Origin: a virus
Direction: 5' to 3' (one strand)
UHGV virus genome: UHGV-1377823
Length of the DNA: 44,002 nt
Positions 24,190-40,613 of the stretch are shown here, piece by piece. The position numbers and the translations under genes are program-made. The notes below the pieces were generated by a model. That model was not told the DNA's origin, made no database searches, and was given only the letters and a program-made list of their open reading frames with translations. Position 1 is the first letter of the stretch, and each line of letters opens with the position of its first letter.

Positions 24190-25926
24190 ATGGCTTTCAG
24201 TTGGAGTGAGCTTAACTACCCGGCTGGCACAACCTCTGTACCCGTAGATATAGAGTACCTTGACAAGTCCTATATTTACGTGTACCTGGACGGTGTACTT
24301 ACTACGGACTACACCTGGAGCAGTGATACTGTTATTCAGTTTAACACTGCCCTGGCTGCTGCTACGGATGTACTGCTTGTACGCCGCACAGATAAAGAGT
24401 TCTTGTACATTATGTTCGCAGAGGGCGCTGCCTTTATCCGGGAGAACATTGATACTCAGAACAAGCAGTTCCTGCATCTTGCTCAGGAACTAACCGAGGG
24501 GCGCTCTATTGAGGGCTTCTACGGGGACTTGAGCATGAACGGGTTCCGCATCACCAATTTAGGCGCTGGGGTTAACCCTGGGGATGCAGTTAACAAGGGG
24601 CAGTTGGACGTAGTGGACCAGCGCGTAGTGAACCTGGAGCAGGCGTTTATTCAGGACACTACGAGTTATCCTTGGTACACTATTACTTCTACTGTAACAG
24701 ATACCCTGGACCCACCTTTCAACTTCACTAAAGCTGCGCTGTACATTAACGGCGTATGCCAGGTGCCTGGGTATAGTTATGAGGTTGTATCGAACCAGAT
24801 ACTACTGGCTGACCCTGTACCTATTGGCACCTTAATCTTCGCTCGTCTAGGTGAGGATGTTGGTACCGGGGACGAGTACGCTACGGCAGAGCAGTTAGCT
24901 GCTGCTATCAGTGCCGCCGAACTAGCGCACGTGCAGTTACAGAACAACATTGACCTAAAGCTAGACGCTACAGCTAACGCAGTATCAGCTACTAAGTTGC
25001 AGACTGCACGTACAGTGCAGACTAATTTAGCCAGTACTAGCCCATCTAGTTTCGACGGTACAGCTAATATCTCCCCCGGTGTTACAGGGATTCTGCCAAC
25101 CACTAACGGGGGCACGGGTAATGTCAACGGGACTGTAGCGGCATTAACTACTGCGCGTACCTTTCAGACAAACCTTGCCAGTACTAGCTCAGCTAGCTTT
25201 GATGGTTCCGCTAACGTAACTCCAGGGGTGACGGGTACTCTACCTATTGCTAACGGGGGCACAGGTAATACTACTGGGTTAGCTGCTACTGCTACGGCTC
25301 TCGCCACGGCCAGGACCTTCCAGACTAACTTAGCCAGCACTGCAAGCGCTAGCTTCAACGGCACTGCTAACGTTACGCCCGGCGTTACTGGTACACTGCC
25401 GTTGAGTAATGGGGGTACAGGGGGTACTACAGCAGTCTCTGCGCGTGATTCTCTAGGCGCTGCTGCATCTGGTAGTAACTCTGATATCACGGCCTTGACC
25501 GCGCTCACAGGCGGTATTACGGGGCTTGTTGGGGGTACTGCTGCTGCTGCTGGTGTAGTTGGGCAGATTCTGGAAGCCGTCAGCGGCTCCGCTGTAGCGT
25601 TAACTTCCGGAACCACTACTAACCTGACTAGCTTAGCGCTGCCTGCGGGTGAGTGGTTGGTTATGGGTAGCATCCGTATTGACAGTTCCGGGGGGAGTAT
25701 CACATCCCGAACCTTAGCTATTAATGACGTGTCCGCTACTACCCCAAGCGCTTGGTATCATGACTATATATCCCAAGCCAACACCGGGGCGGGGGTTAAC
25801 GTTTATGTCGTACCCCTTAGGTACTTTAGCTTGACAGGCACTACTACTCTCTACGCGGTAGCTAACGTCGAAGGTTCAGGGACTCTGACCGGACGGGGAT
25901 ACATTAGAGCGATACGTATACGTTAA
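24190..25926 (+). CDS. tail fibre protein with T7 gp17-like N-terminal tail-attachment domain
   Basis: N-terminal ~150 aa resemble T7 gp17 (DIEYLDKSYIYVYLDGVL...LLVRRTDKEF...). Central region has three tandem ~46-aa repeats; C-terminal domain is Gly/Thr-rich. Confidence 0.85.
   Translation: MAFSWSELNYPAGTTSVPVDIEYLDKSYIYVYLDGVLTTDYTWSSDTVIQFNTALAAATDVLLVRRTDKEFLYIMFAEGAAFIRENIDTQNKQFLHLAQELTEGRSIEGFYGDLSMNGFRITNLGAGVNPGDAVNKGQLDVVDQRVVNLEQAFIQDTTSYPWYTITSTVTDTLDPPFNFTKAALYINGVCQVPGYSYEVVSNQILLADPVPIGTLIFARLGEDVGTGDEYATAEQLAAAISAAELAHVQLQNNIDLKLDATANAVSATKLQTARTVQTNLASTSPSSFDGTANISPGVTGILPTTNGGTGNVNGTVAALTTARTFQTNLASTSSASFDGSANVTPGVTGTLPIANGGTGNTTGLAATATALATARTFQTNLASTASASFNGTANVTPGVTGTLPLSNGGTGGTTAVSARDSLGAAASGSNSDITALTALTGGITGLVGGTAAAAGVVGQILEAVSGSAVALTSGTTTNLTSLALPAGEWLVMGSIRIDSSGGSITSRTLAINDVSATTPSAWYHDYISQANTGAGVNVYVVPLRYFSLTGTTTLYAVANVEGSGTLTGRGYIRAIRIR
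25004..25430 (+). repeat. three tandem ~140-145 nt coding repeats inside tail fibre gene
   Basis: Repeat units start at 25004, 25149 and 25306 (TARTxQTNLASTSxxSFDGxANxxPGVTGxLPxxNGGTGN). Protein identity is ~80% but DNA identity is lower, through synonymous changes. They produce the spurious minus-strand ORF 25164-25703. Confidence 0.7.
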
Positions 25927-25938
25927 GGTAGGTTAATT

Positions 25939-26238
25939 ATGGCAAAGGCGGCAACTAAAAGCCGCCTCAGCGAACTTCACAGGATGTTTACTGAGGCGCT
26001 AATTAGCGAACTCAAGCAGGCGGGGGAAGAGGAGATTCCTTTACCCGCTGCGGATAAGTCTGTTATCGCCAAGTTCCTCAAGGATAACGAAATCACTGCT
26101 GATGCAGACTCTACGGAGATGCAGGAGCTGCGGGACGAGTTCGAGGATGAGCTGGCAGCTAAGCGTAAAGCACGGGCTGAGGAACTGCTGGCTAAGGCTG
26201 GGGCAGACCCAGAGGATGATTTAGCAGGGATTATTTAA
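25939..26238 (+). CDS. terminase small subunit (DNA maturase A, gp18-like)
   Basis: 99 aa, acidic and helical, immediately upstream of the large terminase subunit. Confidence 0.7.
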   Translation: MAKAATKSRLSELHRMFTEALISELKQAGEEEIPLPAADKSVIAKFLKDNEITADADSTEMQELRDEFEDELAAKRKARAEELLAKAGADPEDDLAGII

Positions 26239-26239
26239 G

Positions 26240-28090
26240 ATGATAAGCCAAACTACACTGAGCAGACTCAAGCTCATCAGTGCTCGTACAACGGTAATGA
26301 ATGATAGCCCGAGGACTATCCCGAAGGACCAGCGTGAGGAAGTAGCGCTGATGATGGCTGTGACTCTGAAGGACTTCCGAGAGTTCGCATACTTAGGTAT
26401 GAAGTTCCTCGGATTCAACCTCACAGAGATGCAGGCTGATATAGCAGAGTTTATGCAGAAAGGCCCGCGCAAGCGCATGGTTGCTGCTCAGCGTGGTGAG
26501 GCTAAGACTACTCTGGCAGCGCTGTACGCTACATGGAGACTCATCCAAGACCAGAGCTGTCGCATCCTGATTGTATCAGCAGGTGAAAAGCAATCCTCAG
26601 ATACAGCGGTACTCATCATCCGTTTAATTGAGACATGGCCCCTGCTCTGCTATTTACGAGCAGACCCAAGCAAGGGCGACCGCACCTCATACGAAGGTTA
26701 TGACGTACACTGCGACCTGAAGCCTCTGGACCGTTCAGCTAGCGTAGCCTGCGTAGGTATCACTGCGTCCCTTCAGGGTAAGCGCGCGGACTTACTAATC
26801 CCGGACGATATTGAGAGTACCAAGAACGGTATGACCCAGACTATGCGTGAGCAGTTACTGGCATTGTCTAAGGACTTCGCCGCTATCTGTACGCACGGGG
26901 ACACGCTGTACCTAGGAACGCCGCAGACTAAGGACAGTATCTACAAGACCCTACCGGGACGTGGCTTTGAAGTGCGCGTATGGCCCGGTCGTATACCAAG
27001 TGAAGATATGGAGGAACGCTATGGCGATACACTTGCTCCTTATATCCGTGAGCTTATTGAGCGCGGGTATAAACGTACAGGATTCGGAATAGATGGAACA
27101 TTAGGAGAGTGCTCAGACAAGGGGCGGTATGATGAGGATGCCCTGCTAGAGAAAGAGCTGGACTTCGGCCCAGAGGGTTTCCAGTTGCAGTATATGCTCG
27201 ACACAACCTTATCTGATGCAATGAGAACAAGGATTAAGCTCAGTGACTGTATGGTCTACTCGGGTTCCCATGATGCAGCCCCAGACCGCCTCAGCTACAT
27301 AGCGGACAAGCGCTACCTCTATACAGAGGAGCACGAGGGTATCCGTGGGCAGTTGCTGTACCAGCCAGCTAGCTATGGTGAGCTGATGCTTCCGTACCAG
27401 CACAAGCTCATGGTCATTGACCCGGCGGGTTGTGGTGGGGACGAGGTGTCCTATGCAGCAGGCGGTGCAGCGAACTCGTACTTGCACCTGTTCTCTGTAG
27501 GTGGGTTCCAGGGCGGTATCAGTACTGAGAACATCGATAAGCTCATTGACCTGGCTATTGAGCTGGGTATCTCGGACTTGTTCATTGAGAGCAACATGGG
27601 GCATGGTACAGTAGAGATGCTGTTCATGAACCGACTGCGTGAGCGTAAGATTCCCGGTATCGGCGTTAGAGGGGGCTACAACACCTCACAGAAGGAGAAG
27701 CGTATCATTGATACCATCTCCCCAGTGACTCGTCGGCATCGCCTTGTAGTGCATTCTAGGGCGCTTACAGATGACATTCAGAGCTGCATGGCCTATAGCC
27801 GCGATAAGCGATGGTTGTACAGTGCATTCCAGCAGCTCCAAAGCATTACCTACGACCGTGGTAGCTTAGCAAAGGACGACCGTGCCGATGCCGTAGCTAT
27901 GCTCGTAGCAGAACTCAACGGCTTCTTGGTTGAGGATGAGAAGGTTTCGGCTGAGAAAGAGCAGCAGAAGCAAGCTCAGAAGTTCATGGATAATCCCATG
28001 GACTGGAAGCAAAGCATGGTTGCTCCGCGCAGCCGTGGTACTCAGGCCCGGATTGACCGGGGTTTAACTAGAAGAAAAGGAAGGTACTAA
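26240..28090 (+). CDS. terminase large subunit (DNA maturase B, gp19-like)
   Basis: 616 aa with an ATPase N-terminal region and a nuclease C-terminal region. Position and size match T7 gp19. Confidence 0.92.
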   Translation: MISQTTLSRLKLISARTTVMNDSPRTIPKDQREEVALMMAVTLKDFREFAYLGMKFLGFNLTEMQADIAEFMQKGPRKRMVAAQRGEAKTTLAALYATWRLIQDQSCRILIVSAGEKQSSDTAVLIIRLIETWPLLCYLRADPSKGDRTSYEGYDVHCDLKPLDRSASVACVGITASLQGKRADLLIPDDIESTKNGMTQTMREQLLALSKDFAAICTHGDTLYLGTPQTKDSIYKTLPGRGFEVRVWPGRIPSEDMEERYGDTLAPYIRELIERGYKRTGFGIDGTLGECSDKGRYDEDALLEKELDFGPEGFQLQYMLDTTLSDAMRTRIKLSDCMVYSGSHDAAPDRLSYIADKRYLYTEEHEGIRGQLLYQPASYGELMLPYQHKLMVIDPAGCGGDEVSYAAGGAANSYLHLFSVGGFQGGISTENIDKLIDLAIELGISDLFIESNMGHGTVEMLFMNRLRERKIPGIGVRGGYNTSQKEKRIIDTISPVTRRHRLVVHSRALTDDIQSCMAYSRDKRWLYSAFQQLQSITYDRGSLAKDDRADAVAMLVAELNGFLVEDEKVSAEKEQQKQAQKFMDNPMDWKQSMVAPRSRGTQARIDRGLTRRKGRY

Positions 28091-28279
28091 ATGGCAATTG
28101 CAGCACAAACTGAAGTAGTACAGCAGGAGCTTCTGCGTCAGCTCAATATCGTAGCCAAGGCTATGTACCAGTTGAAGACGCAGCCACAGTCTATGGCGTC
28201 CAATGGTCCTGCGTTTGATACGCTCATGACCCCAGCCCTGGCTGCTATTAAAGCGGCTGGCTACACTCTGCCTGCATAA
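28091..28279 (+). CDS. hypothetical protein (62 aa)
   Basis: ATG directly after the large terminase stop; no transmembrane segment. Confidence 0.4.
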   Translation: MAIAAQTEVVQQELLRQLNIVAKAMYQLKTQPQSMASNGPAFDTLMTPALAAIKAAGYTLPA

Positions 28280-28692
28280 TGCGTAACCTGGTCGCTGGGT
28301 TACTGCTAGCAGTTATGCTCTCTGGTTGCTCAGCGACCTCTGCACTGACTGGACTCATCGGCTCTAAGCCGGACGTGTCTGCTCAGGTGGGGGCCGAGAA
28401 CACCAAGCAAACTGTTGGCCTCAATAACAAGGTGGACACCAGCACCACCAACAAAACAGACATTCAAGATTCTACCGTAGGTTCTCTGGATACCTCAAGT
28501 AAAAAGCAAGTCCAGACTATCAGCACGGGGACTATTACTGCTGATAAACTACAGGTAGTTAACAATGACAGCAGCAGCTTAATTTTAGCAGCAGCAGTAG
28601 GCGCAGCTATTCCTATCTTGATTCTAGTGATTGTGCTACTGTTCCGCAGATTCTCTCGCGGTAAGGATAAGGTTTATGATTCGACTCTCTGA
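28279..28692 (+). CDS. putative unimolecular spanin (outer-membrane lipoprotein with C-terminal TMD)
   Basis: N-terminal signal with lipobox LSGC (MRNLVAGLLLAVMLSGC), and a Ser/Thr/Asn-rich periplasmic region. A single C-terminal TMD LILAAAVGAAIPILILVIVLLF is followed by RRFSRGKDK. This architecture resembles the T1 gp11 u-spanin. No Rz/Rz1 pair was detected. Confidence 0.55.
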   Translation: MRNLVAGLLLAVMLSGCSATSALTGLIGSKPDVSAQVGAENTKQTVGLNNKVDTSTTNKTDIQDSTVGSLDTSSKKQVQTISTGTITADKLQVVNNDSSSLILAAAVGAAIPILILVIVLLFRRFSRGKDKVYDSTL

Positions 28693-28924
28693 TGTACCTG
28701 CTGACCTGGCTACTCGGGCAGGTGTAATGGCTACAGGGGTAGCTACGAGCGGCGGTTGGTTAGCAGAGATTATGTCCTGGAACTGGAGCGCTATCAGCTT
28801 CATTACAGCAACAATCTGCGCTATCCTTACCGCTGCATGGAATGCTTATATTGGACACAAGCGCCTGAGGCTTCAGGAGGAGGCTGTACGTAAAGGTATC
28901 CCATTCTATGAGATTAAGAAATAA
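28676..28924 (+). CDS. holin (probable pinholin, 2 TMD)
   Basis: 82 aa. TMD1 is weakly hydrophobic and Gly/Ala/Thr-rich (AGVMATGVATSGGWLAEIM, SAR-like); TMD2 is AISFITATICAILTAAWNAYI; the C-terminus is charged. Overlaps spanin end and endolysin start. Confidence 0.55.
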   Translation: MIRLSDVPADLATRAGVMATGVATSGGWLAEIMSWNWSAISFITATICAILTAAWNAYIGHKRLRLQEEAVRKGIPFYEIKK

Positions 28925-29450
28925 GATTATAGGTGCCCTTGCCGGGGCATCTCTCCTGGGCGGAGGCATCACCACCGTAATCCAGAACAATGAAGGGTAT
29001 AGTAGCACTGCTTATCGAGATAGCGCTGGAGTACCTACAATCTGCTACGGTGAGACCAAGGGCGTTCAGATGGGCCAGAAACGCTCTCTAAGCGATTGTC
29101 AGAAGCAATTGATACAGTCAGCAGGGGAACATGCCAAAGCGCTTGTAGGGCTTCCTGAGTCGATTCCTGACGTGGTTCTGCTGGGTAGCCTGGATATGGC
29201 TTATAACGTAGGTGTATCTGGGTTCTCAAATAGTGCAGTGAAGCGTAAGCTGGCACAAGCAGATTACCAGGCAGCAGGCCAAGCTGTGCTGCAATGGAAG
29301 TACATTACCCTGAACGGTAAGGAGTATGATTGCAGCATCAAAGGAAACAAGGTCTGCTATGGCTTGTGGAAGCGCAGGCTCTGGCAGAGCAAGGCAATTG
29401 GTAATGAATTTAAATCAGTGCAGGAAGCTGTAGCAGCCCTGCCAAAGTAA
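28908..29450 (+). CDS. SAR endolysin (T4-type lysozyme, GH24)
   Basis: N-terminal SAR-like segment IIGALAGASLLGGGITTVI followed by the catalytic triad E-8aa-D-5aa-T (EGYSSTAYRDSAGVPT). This is the architecture reported for the phiKMV, P1 and phage 21 SAR endolysins. Confidence 0.85.
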   Translation: MRLRNKIIGALAGASLLGGGITTVIQNNEGYSSTAYRDSAGVPTICYGETKGVQMGQKRSLSDCQKQLIQSAGEHAKALVGLPESIPDVVLLGSLDMAYNVGVSGFSNSAVKRKLAQADYQAAGQAVLQWKYITLNGKEYDCSIKGNKVCYGLWKRRLWQSKAIGNEFKSVQEAVAALPK

Positions 29451-29460
29451 GGAGCAAGTA

Positions 29461-31170
29461 ATGTCTTTAGTAGACTTAACAGTAGCACGGCACCCGGTTG
29501 TAGATACGGGTAGCCAGACGATTACTACGATAGCTGCCTTGCGCACTACCGAGCCTAGCTCAGATAGGCAACGTGTTACGCTTCTGGAGCATACCGCAGG
29601 AACCCGTAAAGGTGGTGGCCAGTTCCGCGCCGTTTTGGCAGGTTCGTCATACACCGACAATAATGGCACCGTCATTAAAACGCCAGGCGGCGCGGCATGG
29701 GTTCGTATAAACGCCGATATCGTGAACCCGTTGATGTTTGGAGCTTTAGGCGATGGAGCGACAAATGACAGTGTTGCACTTAACCGTGCGGGTACATATG
29801 CTACTCGTGTGATTGACCTGTTAGGGCTTACATATGGCGTAGGATCAACATGGTATTTAGAAGCTACAACCCCAAAAGTTGTTAAAAATGGGGGTTTAAA
29901 ATATCTAACAGCTCTGGGCACGGGGCCAATGATGCGTTATAAAAACGCGGCCCATGAGATGTATAATGTGGATTTTGACGGGGGCGGCAGCACTACATCC
30001 ACAGGGCTTATCTGGGAGGGTGGGAACGCCCTTCGCGGGGTTCGCGGCGGTGTAGTTCAGGACTGTAGTTTCCGCTACACAGGTGGTTCGGGTATTGCCG
30101 TTTCTTATGACGGAGCTAATAATACCGTTGGTTCCTTTGGTGTGATTAAAAGAGTTACCTTCAATCATTGTGGCCTTACTGGCGTGGGTAATGGCCGTTG
30201 TTGCCTTCTGCTGGACGGTGTTAGTAACTTCACGGTCTCGGACATTGTGGGTATAGACTGCAACTGGGGTATTTATGTCCGCAACGACTTTAATAATCCT
30301 TTATTGTCTCGTGCGACAAACAATACAATTTCCCGTGTCAATCTTAAAGGGCAGGGACTGAACAGCACGGCATATCCAGATGCTCAGGGTATTTCCTGTT
30401 CTTATCAGGATAACCTACAAATTACTGATGTTACAGTGGATGGCTTCCCAGGTAATGGTATTGATATGCAATACTGCGACGCGAGTATAGTCACGAACTG
30501 GAGAGCTACTGCTTGCGGTGATGGTGTCTTTATGGGTGACAGGGCGTGTCGTAGGCACACTATCAGCAATGGCATTGCTATTGACTGTAACCGCGCTATC
30601 CGTCTTATCACCGACGGCGGCTCCTTCATAATGAACTCTGTGGTGCCAGCTCTTGCGCATATTAAAATTACCAACGTTCATGCGTACAATTCCAGACGCC
30701 AGGCTTTTTACCTTGTTAACTCTGGTAGAGCCGCATATGGGTCTTCTATGACTAATGTGCAATTAGATAACTGCTCGGTGGACGGTACAGGGTCTCTCTC
30801 CCTAACCACTCATACGCATGGATTCCATATAGAGGGTGGCGTTAACGTAACGCTTATGAACTGTAACACCTTCAACATTCGGCAACACGGGGTCTATGTC
30901 AAAGATAGTGAGTTTGTCCGTATATTGGGCGGGGCGCACCAAAACGTAGACCAGGTTGGCGCTGGGAACCAGGGTGTTTATGTATCCTCCGATTGTAACC
31001 GCGTTAGCGTCTCTGATGTGTCTGTCTACGGTTTCGCTACTGCTGGTGCAGTTACTTTAGCTGGTGGGTCTGGACATTCAGCTAAACATATTCGCTGGCG
31101 TAGTATTGCCAGCGGCGTAACATCAAGTGGGGCTTCCTCCCCTTATCTGTTCGATAACCAGTCGTTCTAA
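29461..31170 (+). CDS. tailspike / capsule depolymerase (pectate-lyase-like right-handed beta-helix)
   Basis: FGALGDGATNDSVAL is typical of the pectate lyase/tailspike beta-helix superfamily. Repeated G-x-N/D beta-helix rungs follow. 569 aa, with no T7 gp17-like N-terminal anchor. Located after the lysis genes at the genome right end. Confidence 0.85.
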   Translation: MSLVDLTVARHPVVDTGSQTITTIAALRTTEPSSDRQRVTLLEHTAGTRKGGGQFRAVLAGSSYTDNNGTVIKTPGGAAWVRINADIVNPLMFGALGDGATNDSVALNRAGTYATRVIDLLGLTYGVGSTWYLEATTPKVVKNGGLKYLTALGTGPMMRYKNAAHEMYNVDFDGGGSTTSTGLIWEGGNALRGVRGGVVQDCSFRYTGGSGIAVSYDGANNTVGSFGVIKRVTFNHCGLTGVGNGRCCLLLDGVSNFTVSDIVGIDCNWGIYVRNDFNNPLLSRATNNTISRVNLKGQGLNSTAYPDAQGISCSYQDNLQITDVTVDGFPGNGIDMQYCDASIVTNWRATACGDGVFMGDRACRRHTISNGIAIDCNRAIRLITDGGSFIMNSVVPALAHIKITNVHAYNSRRQAFYLVNSGRAAYGSSMTNVQLDNCSVDGTGSLSLTTHTHGFHIEGGVNVTLMNCNTFNIRQHGVYVKDSEFVRILGGAHQNVDQVGAGNQGVYVSSDCNRVSVSDVSVYGFATAGAVTLAGGSGHSAKHIRWRSIASGVTSSGASSPYLFDNQSF

Positions 31171-31290
31171 CCAGAGCTTCTAACCAGTCGCTCTAAGGAT
31201 AGCCTTGGGGATAGCTTAGGGAGTGCTAGTAGGGGATGCTGGTGTATACTTGCTCCCTAAAAATATTATACTTACTAATTGGAGATATCT

Positions 31291-31740
31291 ATGAACGTTA
31301 AATATGATACAAACTCCGCCAGCGGTCTGACCTGGTTAACTGGTAGACGCGCTGGTGCTGTAGCAGGAACCCTGAACGCTAAGGGCTACTGGGTTGTGCA
31401 GATGCAAGGCAAGAAGATGCAAGTGCATCGTATTATCTGGGAGATGCTGAATGGGCCTATACCAGATGATAAAGTGATTGACCACATAAACCAGAACCCT
31501 GCTGATAACCGCATTGAGAACCTGCGCCTAGCCAGTGTCAGCGATAACAACTGCAATGCTAGACGTGATAGCCGAGAGTATCCTCGTGGGGTATACTATA
31601 CAGGTTCATGCTGGCGCGGAGAGTTCTGGAAGGATGGCAAGCGCTATATGCGAAAGCACAGCTCATACGAAGTAATCTGCCAGTGGGTTCTCAGTGAACG
31701 CGCTAGGCTTCACGGGGAGTTTATCCCTGAGCAGGTGTAA
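31291..31740 (+). CDS. HNH homing endonuclease (HNH_3 + AP2-like)
   Basis: IDHINQNPADNRIENLRLASVSDNNCNA matches the HNH_3 motif. It is a paralogue of the HNH at 40064-40534. ATG 31291 has a GGAGA SD 5 nt upstream. Embedded in the GATAGC repeat array. Confidence 0.8.
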   Translation: MNVKYDTNSASGLTWLTGRRAGAVAGTLNAKGYWVVQMQGKKMQVHRIIWEMLNGPIPDDKVIDHINQNPADNRIENLRLASVSDNNCNARRDSREYPRGVYYTGSCWRGEFWKDGKRYMRKHSSYEVICQWVLSERARLHGEFIPEQV

Positions 31741-31773
31741 ACCTGTTAGTCAAAAATGATATACTTGTGTCAG

Positions 31774-31864
31774 CCTCACCCTCACCCTCACCGCCCCTCG
31801 TTTCCCCCATAGGGGGTGCCTCAGCCAGAACTATGGCCTGGGTGGGGTGGGGGCCTGGGCCTGT
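31774..31864 (+). repeat. (CCTCAC)x3 - CCCCCATAGGGGG palindrome - G-tract run (GGTGGGGTGGGGGCCTGGGCCTG)
   Basis: Three tandem CCTCAC hexamers at 31774-31791. A perfect 5+3+5 palindrome at 31804-31816. A run of five G-tracts at 31836-31864. The C-rich to G-rich strand switch gives G-quadruplex potential on both strands. Confidence 0.6.
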
Positions 31865-32198
31865 TCAGGGATAGCCTGGGGCCTCTACGAGGCTCTGGGA
31901 GCTTCTCTAAGCGCTTCTACCGGATAGCCTATAGGATTGCATAGGGATAGCCCTGTGATAGCCTTAGCGTGGCTCTGGTTGGCTCTGAGTGATAGCTCTG
32001 AGTAGCTCTGTGTGGTAGCGGAGGTGGGCGCAGGCTTACCTCTTTTCGTCCTCTATGTGTGCCTAGAGATAGCTTAGGGATAGCTGTAGAATCCTCACGT
32101 ACAGGCCGGAGATAGCTATTGGATAGCTCCAGTGTTAGCCGGTAATGGGTATAGCTAGAAGCTAGAGGTTGCATGATAAGGTATGCTGACTGTATGCA

Positions 32199-32227
32199 TT
32201 GACTAGGTATGACCATACTGCTACTAT
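32199..32227 (+). promoter_or_regulatory. candidate sigma70 promoter TTGACT-17-TACTAT
   Basis: -35 TTGACT at 32199-32204, a 17-nt spacer, and -10 TACTAT at 32222-32227, in an AT-rich region 170 nt upstream of the 32397 gene. Confidence 0.4.
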
Positions 32228-32396
32228 TGGTCATAGCTACTGTATATACTGAGTGCATACTGAGTATATAGCTATATAGAGTTGGTCACAGCTAATGGTA
32301 GTTGATGGGGTGTAACCATAGGTCACACCTCTGTAAGTACAGGGAATATAAGGAGTTGTTTGATTGAGTATAAATCAGTTAATAGAGGGTTTAAGT

Positions 32397-33095
32397 ATGA
32401 GTGTTCACAGCTACAGTACAGGTTTCGGTACACAGTCTGTTACGCTGAATGTACAGAGCCTGGTGGATACACTGGATAAATCCGGTTCGAGGCAGCAGCT
32501 GGTACAAACAGCGCTTAAGGCTGCCAGGGCACTGAGTAATGAACTGTACGGTGAAAGGAATATACTGAAGTGCATGCAGCTTGTGCTGGCTGCTATAGAT
32601 ACAGAGCGGTATCGTTCCGGTACAGAGGTTATCGATGCTGTACTGGATGCTGATACCGCGAAGTGGTTCAAAGCGTACCGGGTTACTCCGGCTCTGCAAG
32701 CACTGTTACCTGCTGGAGTATCAGCAGGGCGTTGTAAGGCTGCGGTTAACGCAGTGTTTAAGCTACAGGGCGGTACAGTAGCTGGTAGTAAGGCTGGTAA
32801 CGTTGTAGCTGCTGCGGATGGCTCTTACAGCGTTGATACAGTAGACCTCTGCGTAGAGTTATATGACCGAGGGTTAAGTGCCGAGGATATTCGGTTCATG
32901 CTACAGCATTATGGCTACAGTCTCACCGAGTGGGAGGTACTGGAGATACTTAATCGTGAGTGCGGCTACCTGGAGAAGTTTATCTATATAGGTAACGGAG
33001 AGGTAGTGCACGCTCAGTGCAGTAGCCTGGAAGGTCTGGAGCAGTGGCAGGACGTGGTGGTAGCTGCTGAGCAGCGTAAATGGCGGGGGATGTAA
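32397..33095 (+). CDS. hypothetical protein (232 aa)
   Basis: ATG with an AGAGGG SD 7 nt upstream. The track's 32364 start uses an alternative codon. No recognisable domain. Confidence 0.6.
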   Translation: MSVHSYSTGFGTQSVTLNVQSLVDTLDKSGSRQQLVQTALKAARALSNELYGERNILKCMQLVLAAIDTERYRSGTEVIDAVLDADTAKWFKAYRVTPALQALLPAGVSAGRCKAAVNAVFKLQGGTVAGSKAGNVVAAADGSYSVDTVDLCVELYDRGLSAEDIRFMLQHYGYSLTEWEVLEILNRECGYLEKFIYIGNGEVVHAQCSSLEGLEQWQDVVVAAEQRKWRGM

Positions 33096-33277
33096 TGCGA
33101 ACTTATGAGGTAGTAGACTTTGCGGTTGGTGCAGTAGATTATGAGTGGGGCTTGAATCTTTGTGGTAGAGAGTTTGATGAACTGACTGCTGCTGTAGAGC
33201 GTAAAGTCTCAGCGGGGCACACGCTCTGCGAGGATTTGATTCTGGATACATTGATGAAGCTTAGAGAGAGGGTTTAA
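33095..33277 (+). CDS. hypothetical small acidic protein (60 aa)
   Basis: ATG overlaps the upstream TAA (TAATG), so the two genes are translationally coupled. Confidence 0.45.
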   Translation: MRTYEVVDFAVGAVDYEWGLNLCGREFDELTAAVERKVSAGHTLCEDLILDTLMKLRERV

Positions 33278-33290
33278 GCGGTGGGAGAGA

Positions 33291-33323
33291 GGGAAGCGCT
33301 ATACAGCTAGTGCTTCCCTTTTT
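33291..33323 (+). terminator. rho-independent terminator
   Basis: GGGAAGC(GCT)-loop-(AGT)GCTTCCC stem followed by TTTTTG. Lies directly after the 33277 stop and before the early promoters. Confidence 0.65.
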
Positions 33324-33353
33324 GCTTAATAGAGAATTATTTTAAATTAAGTG

Positions 33354-33382
33354 TTGACATTCTGAATCAGGACTAGTAGAGT
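33354..33382 (+). promoter_or_regulatory. strong sigma70 early promoter (TTGACA-17-TAGAGT) with AT-rich UP element
   Basis: Consensus -35 TTGACA at 33354-33359, a 17-nt spacer, and -10 TAGAGT at 33377-33382. Upstream is AATAGAGAATTATTTTAAATTAAGTG (UP-element-like). Analogous to the T7 A1 promoter. Confidence 0.6.
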
Positions 33383-33578
33383 TAGACACATCGAGAGGCA
33401 AGGAGCCGCCCGGTAACGGGGAGTAGCGCCAGGGCATACGAAACCTGGATAATCGATAAGCAGGGTAAGAGATTAAGGTATTACTCCTCCGCGAAACCCT
33501 CGAAAGAGACCAGCTAGCGGGAACCTGGAAGAGGTTCGATAACTGGAAGTGACCGACATCACTGCGAAGAAACAGAGC

Positions 33579-33607
33579 TTGACAAGTACAGCAAAACGCA
33601 GTAACTT
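33579..33607 (+). promoter_or_regulatory. second sigma70 early promoter (TTGACA-17-TAACTT)
   Basis: Consensus -35 TTGACA at 33579-33584, a 17-nt spacer, and -10 TAACTT at 33602-33607. Confidence 0.5.
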
Positions 33608-33851
33608 AGATAGCAAGCAAGACAAGTTCACGAGTACGAAGTAAGTCGGGAGCCGTTACAAGGATTGTAGCAAGCGCGACTATAAATATCTGCGGGCTGG
33701 CGTGCTGAGAGACTGCGCCTTTATAGAAGAGTCTCGAACGTTGTAGAGCGTCCACGGTTATGCAGTGGGAATCTACACTAAGACACGCTGTACAAGGCGT
33801 GACCTTAGTTAAGCACCCTCTCTGTGAGGATGCAGAATTAAGGGGTATATC

Positions 33852-34022
33852 ATGAAGAAGATTAAAATTGGGTCATACGTACTGGTTAAGCACGAGTATA
33901 AATACACATCCCCTGTGAGCTTACATCGTACTCACACAGTAATCGACGTTCGCGGCGCAGAGTTACTTTTAAAGGGGTGCACTGATTATCTCCCGTTGAG
34001 CATGTTCGAACTCCACCGATAG
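33852..34022 (+). CDS. first early ORF, hypothetical (56 aa)
   Basis: ATG with an AAGGGG SD. Translation is MKKIKIGSYVLVKHEYKYTSPVSLHRTHTVIDVRGAELLLKGCTDYLPLSMFELHR. Below the ORF-track size cutoff. Confidence 0.4.
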   Translation: MKKIKIGSYVLVKHEYKYTSPVSLHRTHTVIDVRGAELLLKGCTDYLPLSMFELHR

Positions 34023-34031
34023 GGACGTGTT

Positions 34032-34268
34032 ATGGGCTACTTAAAACTCTGTAAGAAGCGCGAGCAGTCAATCAAAGCACTGGTAGCTGCTGCGCAGACT
34101 CCGGAAGGCTCTGAGGAGCGCAAGCGCCTTAAGAAGCTTCAGACCTTTGAGGCTACTGACCGGGCAAGACCGCAGGGCTTCAGTACGAACGTACGCAGTA
34201 TCGGTAATAAGACCGATAGCAAGATTAACAGCTACTACGCGGCTAAGAGCCGTACACCTAAATTCTAA
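34032..34268 (+). CDS. hypothetical basic early protein (78 aa)
   Basis: ATG ORF; Lys/Arg-rich. Confidence 0.5.
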   Translation: MGYLKLCKKREQSIKALVAAAQTPEGSEERKRLKKLQTFEATDRARPQGFSTNVRSIGNKTDSKINSYYAAKSRTPKF

Positions 34269-34280
34269 GAGGAAACAATC

Positions 34281-34511
34281 ATGGCTAAATATAACGGACA
34301 CAAAAACTGGAATCACTGGAATGTATCTCTGTGGATTAACAACGATGAGGGGCTGTATCGCTTAGCTGTGGAGCAGGTTGAGAAGTGCCGGACCCGTGAG
34401 CGCGCAGCGGAGAATATTGTGCATGAGCTTGCTAGTGCAGGCATTACTCACACCTCAGACGGTGCCCCTTACTCTAAATCAGCAGTTCGCGCTGCTCTGG
34501 TAGGTATGTGA
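34281..34511 (+). CDS. hypothetical early protein (76 aa)
   Basis: ATG with an AGAGGAAA SD. Confidence 0.5.
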   Translation: MAKYNGHKNWNHWNVSLWINNDEGLYRLAVEQVEKCRTRERAAENIVHELASAGITHTSDGAPYSKSAVRAALVGM

Positions 34512-34609
34512 TGGAGTGGTGCACGGAGTTCTACGTATTCTTCTTCCTGGTGTTAATGCCAGCATGGTTCTGGTTAGTATCTCCAACCTCTAAAGGTGGC
34601 AAGAAATGA
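34511..34609 (+). CDS. small hydrophobic membrane peptide (32 aa)
   Basis: MEWCTEFYVFFFLVLMPAWFWLVSPTSKGGKK. Both its start and its stop overlap neighbouring genes in ATGA fashion (TGATG and ATGA). Confidence 0.35.
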   Translation: MEWCTEFYVFFFLVLMPAWFWLVSPTSKGGKK

Positions 34610-34845
34610 TTCAGACAATTACTATCGCGGTTAAGTCCGCTGTGCTGCTGCTTAGCAGCAACGTAGCAGAGCCTATCCTGTATTGCACCGTAGAAGTCAC
34701 AGGGCAGCCCGGCTATGAGCTTTATGAGGCCCCAGAAGGTGGTTGCAAGGGCTTAGGCAAGCGCCTGCTACAGAGCTTCCAGGGCGCTTATCCTGATAAG
34801 CCTGTACTGCTTATCGTTGACGGTAAATCCAACCAGGGGATTTAA
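34606..34845 (+). CDS. hypothetical early protein (79 aa)
   Basis: ATG ORF coupled to the upstream peptide. Confidence 0.5.
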   Translation: MIQTITIAVKSAVLLLSSNVAEPILYCTVEVTGQPGYELYEAPEGGCKGLGKRLLQSFQGAYPDKPVLLIVDGKSNQGI

Positions 34846-34846
34846 T

Positions 34847-34993
34847 ATGTTAACCTACTGCGGGGTGCTAATTCTTTTGGCTGGGTTCTATGCTTTTACG
34901 CGTGGCTGCTGGGTTGGCGGTGGCTGGCTGTTTGCTTGGGTAGGGGTTGCGCTTGTGTATATCCTAACCGCCATGACCATTTTAAATATTTGA
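34847..34993 (+). CDS. small 2-TMD membrane protein (48 aa)
   Basis: MLTYCGVLILLAGFYAFTRGCWVGGGWLFAWVGVALVYILTAMTILNI, starting 2 nt after the upstream stop. Confidence 0.4.
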   Translation: MLTYCGVLILLAGFYAFTRGCWVGGGWLFAWVGVALVYILTAMTILNI

Positions 34994-35001
34994 GGTGCAA
35001 G

Positions 35002-35172
35002 ATGAACAACCAGACAGTTGAGACAGAGTGCAAGCGCGAAGCAGATATGTTCGCGCTGTTCCAGTTCCTGATGAAGCGGCCTGATTTGGCTGCGAACGAG
35101 GACAAGGGCGGCGACGAGGTACGCGCCGCTACTAACGCTAACTTTTACAGAGGGCTTGGTGATGCGATTTAA
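35002..35172 (+). CDS. hypothetical early protein (56 aa)
   Basis: ATG 35002 with a GAGGTG SD. The track ORF starts at 34936 with an alternative codon. Confidence 0.45.
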   Translation: MNNQTVETECKREADMFALFQFLMKRPDLAANEDKGGDEVRAATNANFYRGLGDAI

Positions 35173-35362
35173 GATTAAGGTTAACTATGCAGATACTACT
35201 CAGACGCATTGGTGGTCTGAGCCTGATGGTTCGGTGCCTTGCGAGAGCGATGCTACGGTGTACACCCCTGCGCAGGTAATAGACAAAACCAAGTCTAGCT
35301 GGTTCAACGAGGACCGGGACGCCGGGCGCGATTGCTGGTTATCCCTGAAGCTGGTGCCATAA
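35156..35362 (+). CDS. hypothetical early protein
   Basis: GTG 35156 or ATG 35162 (MRFKIKVNYADTTQTHWW...); Trp-rich. Confidence 0.45.
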   Translation: MVMRFKIKVNYADTTQTHWWSEPDGSVPCESDATVYTPAQVIDKTKSSWFNEDRDAGRDCWLSLKLVP

Positions 35363-35469
35363 TGTTCTGGCTAACGTTCTCCCTGGTCATGGCAGCTATA
35401 GTGCTACTGCCTTATATCTGCGACGGCATAGCGCGGTTGATTCTGTGCTTGCTGGAGCTGTTCCGATAA
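35362..35469 (+). CDS. small hydrophobic membrane peptide (35 aa)
   Basis: MFWLTFSLVMAAIVLLPYICDGIARLILCLLELFR; ATG overlaps the upstream TAA. Confidence 0.3.
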   Translation: MFWLTFSLVMAAIVLLPYICDGIARLILCLLELFR

Positions 35470-35499
35470 CTAAGAACATACAACATGAGGTCGAAGAGA

Positions 35500-35658
35500 A
35501 TGCGTATTCAAGTACACCTTAAAGAATCAGAACTGGCAGAAATGGAGATGACAAAAGAAGAGCTTCGCCAATCTATTATTGCTGATTTGGATAACAGTGA
35601 TGTGGATGGCGAATATGTTGGCTTTACCGTGACTGTGTATGTTACGGAGGGCATTTAA
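35500..35658 (+). CDS. small acidic protein (52 aa), locally AT-rich
   Basis: MRIQVHLKESELAEMEMTKEELRQSIIADLDNSDVDGEYVGFTVTVYVTEGI. An alternative start is ATG 35485. Confidence 0.4.
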   Translation: MRIQVHLKESELAEMEMTKEELRQSIIADLDNSDVDGEYVGFTVTVYVTEGI

Positions 35659-35775
35659 ATGACTATCCAGAGCATCGCATTCCAGTACATGCAGTACCTA
35701 CTCGCTAACGGCTTCAGCGCTGAGTCAGCCTGGGGCCGGGCAATGAAACTTATTGAAGAAGGGGGCAAGAAATGA
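35659..35775 (+). CDS. small hypothetical protein (38 aa)
   Basis: ATG abuts the upstream TAA, and its stop overlaps the next ATG (ATGA). Confidence 0.3.
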   Translation: MTIQSIAFQYMQYLLANGFSAESAWGRAMKLIEEGGKK

Positions 35776-35999
35776 TTAAAGGTCAGCAGATTCGTTACTT
35801 AGGCCGCAAAGGCCGCGCGGTTTTAGACTTAACGGTTGGGCGTGAATACACAGTTACAGCCGGGGCAGGTGATATAGATAGCGCTTGTGGTGGTCTGGTT
35901 GGGGATTACGGCTGTAACATCATAAACGACGTAGGGGATGTGCTGTATGTAACCTTCAGCGGCACATCCCTCTGGGGTGATTGGGAGATTGTATCATGA
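35772..35999 (+). CDS. hypothetical early protein (75 aa)
   Basis: ATG ORF; Gly-rich. Confidence 0.5.
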   Translation: MIKGQQIRYLGRKGRAVLDLTVGREYTVTAGAGDIDSACGGLVGDYGCNIINDVGDVLYVTFSGTSLWGDWEIVS

Positions 36000-36175
36000 C
36001 AGCACAGAATCCAGAGGTTATCCTGATTAAGCAGGAGCAGCCAACTATCGAGGGCTTAGCGCGGGAGCGCGCAGCTAAGCAAGGACTTAAGCATTACTAC
36101 CAGGTACGGGCACGCCAGCTAGGGCTGAGCCTGCGCACGTACTGCGAGCGCTTTAATGTTAAGGGGGTTGTATGA
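35996..36175 (+). CDS. hypothetical early protein (59 aa)
   Basis: ATG 35996 overlaps the upstream TGA (ATGA). Confidence 0.45.
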   Translation: MTAQNPEVILIKQEQPTIEGLARERAAKQGLKHYYQVRARQLGLSLRTYCERFNVKGVV

Positions 36176-36504
36176 GCAACATCGACAAACGCGCATTACG
36201 TGAAGCGGCAGAGAAGGCTATCTCAGAGGAAGGAGAGACTTGGTGGAGTGAAGAGCAACTGGCTAGCGACTATGGTCTTGCGTTGCATAAGGCAGACGCC
36301 AAGTTCATCGCCGCAGCCAATCCCGCCACTGTGCTGGCGCTGCTGGATGAGCTGGAATCCGCAGAGAAGCGGATTGCTGAGCAGCGGGAAACCTTGCTTG
36401 CAGCACGCAGTCACGTAATGCACTGTGCGCACCTTGGTGATGCCCATGCAAGCGGTGTGCTTCAGGCTATCGACCGCGCCGCAGTCGCTAAAGGGGTTAT
36501 CTAA
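36172..36504 (+). CDS. Ead/Ea22-like protein
   Basis: AANPATVLALLDELESAEKRIAEQRE matches the conserved core of the Ead/Ea22-like phage early-protein family. The assignment is from memory, not from a search. Confidence 0.6.
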   Translation: MSNIDKRALREAAEKAISEEGETWWSEEQLASDYGLALHKADAKFIAAANPATVLALLDELESAEKRIAEQRETLLAARSHVMHCAHLGDAHASGVLQAIDRAAVAKGVI

Positions 36505-36830
36505 TGCTCACCCCCGCTGAGACCGCCGCGCTGTACTGGGATATGCTCGAGCAACAGCGCAGTATGGGCCTGAAGTCCCTGCGGGATATCCCGGTGCAGC
36601 TACGGAAGCTAGCGCCCTTGCAGTGGAGAACAGGCTTCGAGTACCGCGAGGGGCTGCGCTTACTGCAAGGCTGGTACGCATATAGCCCTGAGATCGCACA
36701 GGAAGCCCTAGGAGAGCTTAAGTTCGACGTGGTAGGGCAACTACAGCGCTTAGGGTACAAAGGCGCTCAGAGAGCGTTCTACGCAGCCGTACAAGACTAT
36801 TACGATTGGAGAGTGAGTTATGCAGCTTAA
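36504..36830 (+). CDS. hypothetical early protein (108 aa)
   Basis: ATG overlaps the upstream stop; Trp/Tyr-rich. Confidence 0.5.
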   Translation: MLTPAETAALYWDMLEQQRSMGLKSLRDIPVQLRKLAPLQWRTGFEYREGLRLLQGWYAYSPEIAQEALGELKFDVVGQLQRLGYKGAQRAFYAAVQDYYDWRVSYAA

Positions 36831-37008
36831 AGAGACAGACATTTGTTGGCCAGTTAAATTAGAGGTGGATACGTACGGGGGCACAACCTTGGATTTGGTT
36901 GAGGTTGACGACGCGTTCAGAGTCGCCCTGGACCGTGAACAAGCACAGCAGCTACTGCCAATCCTGGAGCATTTCATTAAGACGGGGGAATTACCTGATG
37001 CAAGTTAA
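36820..37008 (+). CDS. small acidic protein (62 aa)
   Basis: ATG ORF with a high Asp/Glu content, a candidate DNA mimic. Confidence 0.45.
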   Translation: MQLKETDICWPVKLEVDTYGGTTLDLVEVDDAFRVALDREQAQQLLPILEHFIKTGELPDAS

Positions 37009-37499: not shown

Positions 37500-37502
37500 G
37501 GT

Positions 37503-37979: not shown

Positions 37980-37981
37980 CT

Positions 37982-40534: not shown

Positions 40535-40541
40535 CTACTAA

Positions 40542-40578: not shown

Positions 40579-40613
40579 AATTATCCCCTATTATATAGAG
40601 TGTGGAGGTTAGT

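What the first reader, a model, noticed from the sequence alone, without database searches (positions are those of the whole stretch)
28279..29450. Lysis cassette built from a u-spanin-like lipoprotein, a pinholin and a SAR endolysin
The usual two-component Rz/Rz1 spanin is replaced by a single 137-aa protein. It has a lipobox (LSGC), a low-complexity S/T/N/K periplasmic domain and a C-terminal TMD, the architecture known from the T1 gp11 unimolecular spanin. It precedes a two-TMD holin whose first TMD is Gly/Ala-rich (pinholin-like) and an endolysin with a signal-anchor-release N-terminus and the T4-type E-8-D-5-T triad. This is a complete SAR/pinholin/u-spanin lysis pathway in a T7-like phage. 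The 62-aa ORF just upstream (28091-28279) has no obvious role.
Basis: partly seen in the sequence, partly recalled or inferred. Interest (0 to 1): 0.6.

Follow-up and report, generated by a model that had tools for sequence, protein, structure and literature searches.

The report
Known KP34-type phage lysis cassette
The three genes are a real host-lysis module (single-protein spanin, small holin, membrane-tethered lysozyme), but this module in this gene order is a published hallmark of KP34/phiKDA1-like phages, so it is ordinary.

Summary
Window 28279-29450 carries three overlapping + strand genes.

- **137-aa lipoprotein:** lipobox LSGC, Cys17, Ser at +2, and a C-terminal membrane helix at 101-120.
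- **82-aa holin:** a weak Gly/Ala/Ser/Thr-rich first hydrophobic segment and a strong second one.
- **180-aa lysozyme:** a weakly hydrophobic, uncleaved-looking N-terminal anchor and the triad E29-8-D38-5-T44.

No second lipoprotein ORF exists in any frame of the cassette or anywhere in the 44-kb genome.

The 137-aa protein is a homologue of T1 gp11, the tested unimolecular spanin (39% identity, E 3e-24), not only an architectural look-alike. The lysozyme is homologous to the phage 21 SAR endolysin R21. The holin family is distantly related to the phage 21 pinholin S21.

It is not new. The window is a phiKDA1-like genome (Koutsourovirus, Slopekvirinae). Its spanin is 99% identical to those of phiKDA1 and Entb_48, and the Entb_48 one is annotated 'U-spanin'. 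The u-spanin, holin, SAR endolysin order was described as a defining feature of 'Kp34likevirus' in 2015. phiKDA1 is listed in the T1 gp11 family of the 2018 spanin census. The pinholin call alone remains inferential.

The parts
28279..28692 (+). Unimolecular spanin (u-spanin) of 137 aa. It has a lipoprotein signal peptide (residues 1-17, lipobox LSGC, Cys17), a Cys-free periplasmic domain (18 to about 100), a C-terminal membrane helix (about 101-120) and a short basic cytoplasmic tail.
   Evidence: ORF. Lipobox and hydropathy. It is 39% identical to T1 gp11 over 122 aa, E 3e-24. It is 99% identical to the phiKDA1 and Entb_48 proteins and 75-78% to KP34 and Minorna. It matches phrog_1804 at 1e-49. 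Relatives carry the annotations 'U-spanin', 'unimolecular spanin' or 'Rz-like spanin'.
28676..28924 (+). Holin of 82 aa, probably a pinholin. It has a weak G/A/S/T-rich first hydrophobic segment (about 15-33), a strong second TMD (about 37-57) carrying S41-x3-A45-x3-A49-x3-A53, and a basic C-terminal tail.
   Evidence: ORF. Hydropathy. It matches phrog_20 'holin' at 6e-12. Pfam PF04971 (P21 holin S) scores 20.8 bits, below the cut-off of 26. 14 of 17 family members match PF04971 at E up to 0.01, best 2e-7. hhalign against S21 gives probability 62%, aligning both TMDs. Orthologues are annotated 'holin' in Minorna and many Klebsiella phages.
28908..29450 (+). SAR endolysin of 180 aa. It has a basic N-terminus (MRLRNK), a signal-anchor-release domain at residues 7-25 without Cys, and a GH24 lysozyme domain with the catalytic triad E29/D38/T44.
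   Evidence: Pfam PF00959 at 3.7e-20 and phrog_7 'endolysin' at 3.8e-35. Best solved relatives are 3HDE/3HDF and 4ZPU, with the alignment starting inside the N-terminal hydrophobic segment. It is 31% identical to phage 21 R21 and 30% to T1 gp12, including the N-terminus. The triad is invariant in alignment A4.
28091..28279 (+). Conserved 62-aa ORF of unknown function directly upstream. Its stop overlaps the spanin start. It is not shown to belong to the cassette.
   Evidence: phrog_7375 (unknown function) at 8e-30. No Pfam or NCBIfam hit. No hydrophobic segment of TMD strength. It is present in 262 phage records, the same KP34/phiKDA1-like set that holds the holin (264 records). It was not found in the T1-like phages that share the spanin.

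Best explanation
This is the standard late lysis module of a KP34/phiKDA1-like podophage. It has three translationally overlapping genes in the order u-spanin, holin, SAR endolysin, and they act on the three envelope layers.

1. The endolysin is exported by the host Sec system. It stays tethered and inactive on the periplasmic face of the inner membrane through its weakly hydrophobic N-terminal SAR domain.
2. The small holin accumulates in the inner membrane. At a programmed time it triggers, most likely forming small pinholes of the S21 type that collapse the proton-motive force.
3. Depolarisation lets the SAR domain leave the bilayer. The lysozyme (E29/D38/T44) refolds and degrades the peptidoglycan. 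The SAR domain has no Cys, so control is expected to be of the R21 refolding type and not the P1 Lyz disulfide type.
4. The 137-aa protein is lipidated at Cys17 and sorted to the outer membrane (Ser at +2), while its C-terminal helix stays in the inner membrane. It therefore spans the periplasm as a single chain. About 83 residues lie between the anchors, enough only if largely extended. Once the murein is removed it can collapse and oligomerise, fusing or disrupting the outer membrane and releasing the virions.

What is shown here is the sequence features, the homologies and the absence of any other lipoprotein gene. Export, triggering, pinhole size, lipidation, dual-membrane topology and outer-membrane disruption are inferred from the homologous T1 and phage 21 systems.
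For: - **ORFs and overlaps:**
- **u-spanin architecture:** lipobox, +2 Ser, C-terminal TMD and a Cys-free periplasmic domain.
- **Spanin homology:** full-length match to the tested u-spanin T1 gp11 (39% identity, E 3e-24). 44 columns are invariant across six family members. phrog_1804 matches at 1e-49. 1171 phage records carry relatives, including T1-like phages at 50-57% identity, and many are annotated u-spanin.
- **Endolysin:** Pfam lysozyme at 3.7e-20. Best PDB relatives are 3HDE/3HDF, which share sequence with phage 21 R21. The triad is invariant. The N-terminal segment is 65% G/A/S/T with a KD mean of 1.54, comparable to T1 gp12 at 1.68.
- **Holin:** phrog_20. PF04971 is hit by 14 of 17 family members. 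The hhalign alignment superposes both hydrophobic segments on the S21 TMD1 and TMD2. It places the invariant S41/A45/A49 on S21 G40/S44/G48. Its first segment (KD 1.06) is more hydrophobic than the S21 TMD1, which is an established membrane segment (below 0.6 in the same scan).
- **No other spanin candidate:** no other lipoprotein ORF in the cassette or the genome.
- **Literature:** PMC4411677 (u-spanin, holin, SAR endolysin in KP34-like phages). PMC6139136 (gp11 complements lambda Rz/Rz1; the T1 family includes phiKDA1 and KP34; almost all members pair with pinholin and SAR endolysin; no u-spanin has a periplasmic Cys). PMC6554615 (Minorna). PMC6115819 (same cassette order in PhiM1-like phages).
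Against: - Nothing here is experimental for this phage or, as far as I found, for any KP34/phiKDA1-type protein of the three.
- The holin scores below the Pfam gathering threshold for PF04971 (20.8 against 26 bits).
- Its similarity to S21 is weak (BLASTP E 3e-4 pairwise, hhalign probability 62%).
- KP34 gp55 and the Minorna holin are described as having one TMD (PMC4411677; PMC6554615), so the two-TMD pinholin topology is not settled.
- I could not run SignalP or LipoP. Signal-peptidase cleavage of the endolysin N-terminus is therefore not formally excluded.
- A single-sequence AlphaFold model of the spanin was poor (pLDDT 58) and did not model the periplasmic domain.
Confidence: 0.9

Rival explanations
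1. The cassette is the same, but the 82-aa protein is a canonical single-TMD (class III-like, N-out/C-in) holin that makes large holes. The first hydrophobic segment would then be periplasmic or peripheral and not a releasable TMD1. The SAR endolysin would still be activated by the loss of membrane potential that any holin causes.
For: KP34 gp55 is annotated as having one transmembrane domain by PHOBIUS and TMHMM. [quoted passage not shown] The Minorna announcement reports one TMD (PMC6554615). The first segment has a KD mean of only about 1.0. The PF04971 hit is below the gathering score.
Against: In the same hydropathy scan the proven TMD1 of S21 scores lower than this segment, so weak hydrophobicity is expected for a pinholin TMD1. 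Both segments align with the S21 TMD1 and TMD2. The G/A/S/T-rich segment with GGW is conserved across the family. 14 of 17 relatives hit the S21 Pfam family. Kongari 2018 classes these cassettes as pinholin plus SAR endolysin (PMC6139136).
Confidence: 0.2
2. The 137-aa protein is not a spanin. It would be another phage lipoprotein, for example a superinfection-exclusion or receptor-blocking lipoprotein of the Cor or Llp type. Outer-membrane disruption would then be done by something else or not needed.
For: There is a very weak hit to phrog_1119 'Cor superinfection exclusion protein' (E 0.013), confined to the signal peptide at residues 1-34. No functional test exists for the KP34/phiKDA1-type protein.
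Against: It is homologous over its full length to T1 gp11, which complements lambda Rz/Rz1 (PMC6139136). It has the C-terminal TMD that Cor and Llp lipoproteins lack. It is embedded by overlapping reading frames in the holin-endolysin cluster. It matches phrog_1804 at 1e-49. The genome has no other spanin candidate.
Confidence: 0.03

Closest known systems
Lysis cassette of Enterobacter phage phiKDA1 (Koutsourovirus) and Klebsiella phage KP34 (Drulisvirus), Slopekvirinae: u-spanin, holin, SAR endolysin
   Same: The gene order and overlaps are the same, and so is the position between the large terminase (plus the small conserved ORF) and the tailspike. The spanin is 99% identical to phiKDA1 gp59 and 78% to KP34 gp54. 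The holin is 98% identical to a metagenome-derived orthologue, about 98% to the Entb_48 holin and 63% to KP34 gp55. The endolysin is 93% identical to phiKDA1's and 67% to KP34 gp56. The nucleotide identity across the cassette is about 89-93%.
   Different: Differences are at species level only. Genome-wide identity to the nearest records is about 87-90% over 71-82% of the first 25 kb and 33-39% of the remainder. The window lacks the extra 95-aa ORF that phiKDA1 has after the terminase. Its endolysin, like phiKDA1's, lacks a roughly 20-aa insertion present in KP34, Minorna and Entb_48.
Phage T1 lysis cassette: gp13 holin, gp12 SAR endolysin, gp11 u-spanin
   Same: All three proteins are homologous. 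The spanin is 39% identical (E 3e-24) with an identical LSGC lipobox. The endolysin is 30% identical including the SAR N-terminus. The holin is weakly similar over TMD2 and the tail (E 6e-5). gp11 is the experimentally validated prototype u-spanin (PMC6139136).
   Different: The gene order is holin-endolysin-spanin in T1 and spanin-holin-endolysin here. T1 is a siphovirus (Drexlerviridae) and the window is an Autographiviridae podovirus.
Phage 21 pinholin S21 and SAR endolysin R21, the prototype pinholin/SAR pathway
   Same: The endolysin is homologous, with the same E-8-D-5-T triad and a Cys-free SAR domain. The holin has the same two-segment layout, and its small-xxx-small positions align with those of S21.
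   Different: Phage 21 uses a two-component embedded spanin, Rz/Rz1. S21 has a dual-start holin/antiholin motif, which is not evident here: there is a single N-terminal Met and the next Met is at residue 18. Holin similarity is marginal.
phiKMV lysis cassette: pinholin gp44, SAR endolysin gp45, Rz/Rz1
   Same: It is the same subfamily-level phage type, with the RNA polymerase gene next to the structural genes. It also uses a pinholin/SAR endolysin strategy (PMC4411677, citing Briers 2011).
   Different: phiKMV has a two-component spanin placed after the endolysin. Its overall cassette similarity to KP34 is about 30% over 22% coverage according to PMC4411677. I did not compare it directly here.

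Membership tests
T1 gp11 unimolecular spanin family (Kongari 2018) | N-terminal lipoprotein signal with a lipobox and an invariant Cys | tested here: met
   MRNLVAGLLLAVMLSGC: Arg2, hydrophobic h-region, LSGC, Cys17. The lipobox is identical to that of gp11, and the Cys is invariant in alignment A1. SignalP and LipoP were not available.
T1 gp11 unimolecular spanin family (Kongari 2018) | Outer-membrane sorting, meaning no Lol-avoidance Asp at +2 | tested here: met
   Residues after Cys17 are Ser-Ala-Thr-Ser. Actual localisation cannot be tested here.
T1 gp11 unimolecular spanin family (Kongari 2018) | C-terminal transmembrane domain followed by a short basic tail | tested here: met
   Residues 101-120 have a KD mean of 3.0 and are followed by RRFSRGKDK. 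AlphaFold models a helix at 99-132.
T1 gp11 unimolecular spanin family (Kongari 2018) | Periplasmic domain without cysteine | tested here: met
   There is no Cys in residues 18-104. PMC6139136 reports that none of 58 u-spanins has a periplasmic Cys.
T1 gp11 unimolecular spanin family (Kongari 2018) | Sequence relatedness to family members (at least 40% identity over at least 40% of the length) | tested here: met
   Identity is 39% over 89% of the length to gp11 itself. It is 50-57% over about 70% to other T1-like phage proteins. It is 99% to the phiKDA1 protein, and phiKDA1 is listed as a member in Table 5 of PMC6139136.
T1 gp11 unimolecular spanin family (Kongari 2018) | Periplasmic domain predicted as a short helix followed by four or more beta elements | tested here: inconclusive
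   The single-sequence AlphaFold model gives a short helix at 19-27 but leaves residues 28-98 unstructured at pLDDT of about 50. No alignment-based prediction was made.
T1 gp11 unimolecular spanin family (Kongari 2018) | Function: complements a lambda Rz/Rz1 lysis defect and disrupts the outer membrane | not testable with these tools
   This needs an induction experiment with lambda Rz-am/Rz1-am lysogens.
SAR endolysin (R21 / P1 Lyz type) | GH24 lysozyme domain with the E-8aa-D/C-5aa-T catalytic triad | tested here: met
   PF00959 at 3.7e-20. E29, D38 and T44 are invariant with R21 and T1 gp12.
SAR endolysin (R21 / P1 Lyz type) | N-terminal weakly hydrophobic TMD rich in Gly/Ala/Ser/Thr, preceded by basic residues | tested here: met
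   MRLRNK followed by IIGALAGASLLGGGITTVI. Residues 7-23 are 65% G/A/S/T with a KD mean of 1.54. The phmmer alignment with 3HDE starts at residue 9, inside this segment.
SAR endolysin (R21 / P1 Lyz type) | Sec-dependent export without cleavage, and release on membrane depolarisation | not testable with these tools
   This needs expression without holin, with and without azide or an energy poison, plus N-terminal analysis.
Pinholin (S21 family, Pfam PF04971) | Sequence membership in PF04971 | tested here: inconclusive
   The window protein scores 20.8 bits, below the cut-off of 26. 14 of 17 relatives match at E up to 0.01, best 2e-7. Precomputed PF04971 hits are on record for the KP34-type orthologues. 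hhalign against S21 gives probability 62%.
Pinholin (S21 family, Pfam PF04971) | Two TMDs, the first being a weakly hydrophobic, releasable SAR-like helix | tested here: inconclusive
   There are two hydrophobic segments. The first has a KD mean of 1.06 and is 53% G/A/S/T, stronger than the S21 TMD1 in the same scan. Published predictions for orthologues report one TMD (PMC4411677).
Pinholin (S21 family, Pfam PF04971) | Paired with a SAR endolysin | tested here: met
   The holin gene overlaps the start of the SAR endolysin gene by 17 nt.
Pinholin (S21 family, Pfam PF04971) | Forms small (about 2 nm) holes that cannot release a cytoplasmic endolysin | not testable with these tools
   This needs a complementation test with lambda R or a similar soluble endolysin.

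The most novel reading that the evidence does not exclude
The conserved 62-aa ORF (28091-28279) may be a fourth, unrecognised component or regulator of this lysis module. Its stop overlaps the spanin start, and it occurs in essentially the same set of phages as the KP34-type holin. It might, for example, be a soluble timing factor acting on the holin or spanin. If so, the spanin-first gene order of Slopekvirinae would reflect a functional unit and not history alone.
Probability: 0.07. Interest if true: 0.4.

Novelty: already known. Interest (0 to 1): 0.1.

Why it matters
It matters little beyond correct annotation. The result confirms that a phiKDA1-like phage carries the complete three-step lysis set: SAR endolysin, probable pinholin and u-spanin. 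That is useful for phage-therapy dossiers and for people mining endolysins. It also flags an annotation gap. Some recent descriptions of close relatives still call these genes 'hypothetical' or state that no spanin is present (for example PMC13214457; several records). The open questions are how a u-spanin disrupts the outer membrane and whether the KP34-type holin is truly a pinholin. These are questions about the whole family and are not made newly testable by this window.

Tried and rejected
- **Embedded or separate o-spanin.** I scanned all six frames of 28200-29460 for lipobox ORFs with a start codon. I then scanned the whole window for ORFs with a lipoprotein signal. Only the 137-aa ORF was found, so I rejected a two-component spanin.
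- **Weak Pfam hits of the 137-aa protein.** The RIFIN and Stevor hits (E 0.007-0.05, far below their cut-offs) reflect the Ser/Thr/Asn-rich segment plus the TMD, so I rejected them. NCBIfam spanin2_3 scored 23 bits against a cut-off of 80 and matched only the signal-peptide and N-terminal region. It is not informative.
- **Cor-type exclusion lipoprotein.** The hit covered the signal peptide only, so I rejected it.
- **Single-sequence AlphaFold of the spanin.** The model had pLDDT 58 and left the periplasmic domain unmodelled. It says nothing about the beta-strand prediction. I ran no further search on building an alignment, because the family assignment was already secure.
- **Profile of holin relatives against PDB sequences.** Nothing meaningful came back (E 3.9).
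- **Sigma-70 promoter and terminator scan of 25500-32500.** No convincing signal lies inside or flanking the cassette. These phages use their own RNA polymerase, so this says little.
- **The J Virol 2018 paper on gp11 localisation (PMC6206483).** It is not held in the library. Mechanistic statements about gp11 rest on PMC6139136.
Full report
**What is in the sequence**

Between the large terminase gene (26240-28090) and a 569-aa tailspike-like gene (29461-31170) lie four + strand ORFs:

- orf62 at 28091-28279;
- a 137-aa ORF at 28279-28692;
- an 82-aa ORF at 28676-28924;
- a 180-aa ORF at 28908-29450.

The 137-aa ORF starts on the stop codon of orf62 (TAATG). The next two genes each overlap their predecessor by 17 nt. 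This is the compact, translationally coupled layout typical of a phage late operon. A consensus scan found no convincing host-type promoter or terminator inside or around the cassette.

**The 137-aa protein**

It begins MRNLVAGLLLAVMLSGC. This gives a basic residue, a hydrophobic core and the lipobox LSGC ending at Cys17. Ser-Ala-Thr-Ser follows, so there is no Asp at +2 that would retain it in the inner membrane. Residues 101-120 are strongly hydrophobic (Kyte-Doolittle, KD, mean 3.0) and are followed by RRFSRGKDK. The 87 residues between the two anchors contain no cysteine and are 61% S/T/N/K/Q/D.

This region is not low-complexity filler. In an alignment with the phiKDA1, Entb_48, KP34, Minorna and T1 proteins, 44 columns are invariant. 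One of them is the block P-x-V-x-AQVGAENTKQ. Against T1 gp11 the protein is 39% identical over 122 residues, E 3e-24, and has the identical lipobox. It matches PHROG 1804 ('Rz-like spanin') at 1e-49.

A tblastn search finds relatives in 1171 phage records. About 250 of them are KP34-like podophages at 80-90% identity. Hundreds are T1-like siphophages at about 50-57% identity. Many are annotated 'U-spanin' or 'unimolecular spanin'.

No other ORF with a start codon and a lipobox exists in any of the six frames of 28200-29460. A stricter scan of the whole 44-kb window finds exactly one ORF with a lipoprotein signal, the 137-aa gene. There is therefore no hidden Rz1-type o-spanin.

**The endolysin**

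The 180-aa protein is a GH24 lysozyme (Pfam PF00959, 3.7e-20; PHROG 7). Its closest solved relatives by sequence are 3HDE and 3HDF, followed by RrrD (4ZPU). The alignment to 3HDE starts at residue 9, inside the N-terminal hydrophobic segment.

It is 31% identical to the protein annotated 'SAR endolysin' in phage 21 and 30% identical to T1 gp12 from residue 1. E29, D38 and T44, spaced 8 and 5 residues apart, are invariant in an alignment of seven relatives.

The N-terminus reads MRLRNK followed by IIGALAGASLLGGGITTVI. Residues 7-23 are 65% Gly/Ala/Ser/Thr with a KD mean of 1.54, similar to T1 gp12. It has no cysteine. I therefore infer control of the R21 refolding type and not the P1 Lyz disulfide type.

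**The holin**

The 82-aa protein matches PHROG 20 ('holin', 6e-12). It has two hydrophobic segments:

- residues about 15-33, with a KD mean near 1.0 and 53% G/A/S/T;
- residues about 37-57, with a KD mean of 1.6-1.9, followed by a basic tail.

Its hit to Pfam PF04971 ('Bacteriophage P21 holin S') is below the gathering score (20.8 against 26 bits). However, 14 of 17 aligned relatives hit that family at E up to 0.01, the best at 2e-7.

I confirmed the S21 sequence in the phage 21 record, where it is annotated as pinholin and antipinholin. A profile of the window's family aligns with it at hhalign probability 62%, pairwise E 7e-5. The alignment superposes both hydrophobic segments. It places the family-invariant S41, A45 and A49 on S21 G40, S44 and G48. 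From my own knowledge, that small-xxx-small face is the helix-packing surface of the S21 pinhole.

Published annotations of orthologues report a single TMD (PMC4411677; PMC6554615). In the same hydropathy scan, though, the established TMD1 of S21 scores lower than the window's first segment. Weak hydrophobicity is thus what a pinholin TMD1 looks like, and it does not count against one. I find no dual-start motif like that of S21. The pinholin reading is the likeliest but remains inferential.

**Identity of the genome and what is already known**

The window is a complete, circularly permuted genome. It is about 87-90% identical to Enterobacter phages phiKDA1, Entb_48, SDFMU_Pec and SDFMU_EhYP and to Salmonella phage KKP 3828. 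The match covers 71-82% of its first 25 kb and 33-39% of the remainder. phiKDA1 is classified in Autographiviridae, Slopekvirinae, Koutsourovirus.

The cassette itself is 89-93% identical in nucleotides to these phages. The orthologous genes are annotated as follows:

- 'U-spanin' in Entb_48;
- 'Rz-like spanin; putative RzlA', transmembrane protein and endolysin in phiKDA1;
- 'unimolecular spanin', 'holin' and 'endolysin' in Minorna.

Four papers already describe the arrangement.

- **Eriksson et al. 2015 (PMC4411677)** described it as a defining trait of 'Kp34likevirus'. The genes are 'successively: spanin - holin - endolysin', with a u-spanin, a SAR endolysin and hence an inferred pinholin. 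They contrasted this with holin-endolysin-Rz-Rz1 in phiKMV.
- **Kongari et al. 2018 (PMC6139136)** place phiKDA1, KP34, F19, NTUH-K2044-K1-1 and LIMElight in the 28-member T1 gp11 family. They state that all members except two lie in pinholin/SAR-endolysin cassettes. They report that gp11 complements the lambda Rz/Rz1 defect and that no u-spanin has a periplasmic cysteine.
- **The Minorna announcement (PMC6554615)** describes the same kind of cassette.
- **The CB5 paper (PMC6115819)** describes the same order in PhiM1-like phages.

**Mechanism**

The following steps are inferred by homology. None was tested here.

1. The SAR endolysin is exported by Sec and held inactive on the inner membrane.
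2. The holin triggers and depolarises the membrane.
3. The SAR domain leaves the bilayer and the lysozyme degrades the murein.
4. The u-spanin is lipid-anchored in the outer membrane at Cys17 and anchored in the inner membrane by its C-terminal helix. Once freed from the murein mesh, it disrupts the outer membrane.

About 83 residues separate the two anchors. That is enough to cross the periplasm only if the chain is largely extended, which fits the beta-rich extended model proposed for gp11 in PMC6139136. My single-sequence AlphaFold run did not resolve this domain (pLDDT 58).

**The upstream 62-aa ORF**

It belongs to PHROG 7375 (unknown function, 8e-30). It has no Pfam or NCBIfam hit and no membrane-strength hydrophobic segment. 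It occurs in 262 phage records, essentially the set that carries the KP34-type holin (264 records). It was not found in the T1-like phages that share the spanin. Its first 44 residues are well conserved. Co-occurrence cannot be separated from shared ancestry, so its role stays open.

**Verdict**

Three corrections apply:

- the spanin is a true gp11 homologue;
- its periplasmic domain is conserved and not low-complexity;
- the phage is KP34/phiKDA1-like and not T7-like in the narrow sense.

The finding is already known in the literature and in database annotations. Interest is low.

Noticed in passing
window 28091-28279: The conserved 62-aa ORF (PHROG 7375, unknown function) has a stop that overlaps the spanin start. 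It is found in 262 phage records, the same KP34/phiKDA1-like set as the holin, and not in the T1-like phages that share the spanin. Its N-terminal 44 aa are conserved and its C-terminus is variable.
   Followed up: partly
window 29310-29330 (endolysin residues about 135-141), compared with L001, L003 and L005: The endolysin of the window and of phiKDA1 (180 aa) lacks a roughly 20-aa insertion between 'YI(T/S)...' and 'DCS'. KP34, Minorna and Entb_48 (200-202 aa) have it. The nucleotide match to Entb_48 ends near window 29225, which suggests mosaic exchange within the C-terminal part of the enzyme.
   Followed up: partly
window 28090/28091, compared with L002:2206-2493: phiKDA1 carries an extra 95-aa hypothetical ORF between the large terminase and the orf62 homologue. 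In the window the terminase stop is followed directly by orf62.
   Followed up: no
window 29461-31170: A 569-aa ORF immediately follows the endolysin. It sits in the position of the tailspike or depolymerase of relatives (annotated 'tail spike protein' in phiKDA1 and 'pectate lyase superfamily protein' in Minorna). The nucleotide matches to relatives end at or just before its start (window ~29455-29460 at the furthest), so it is probably the host-range cassette that differs between these phages.
   Followed up: no
whole window: The window appears to be a complete, circularly permuted phage genome with all large ORFs on the + strand. Relatives match window 1-25000 and window about 31000-44002 as two separate places, with their genome ends falling near window 31200-31900. 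Some published descriptions of close relatives state that no spanin is present (PMC13214457), which looks like an annotation gap.
   Followed up: partly
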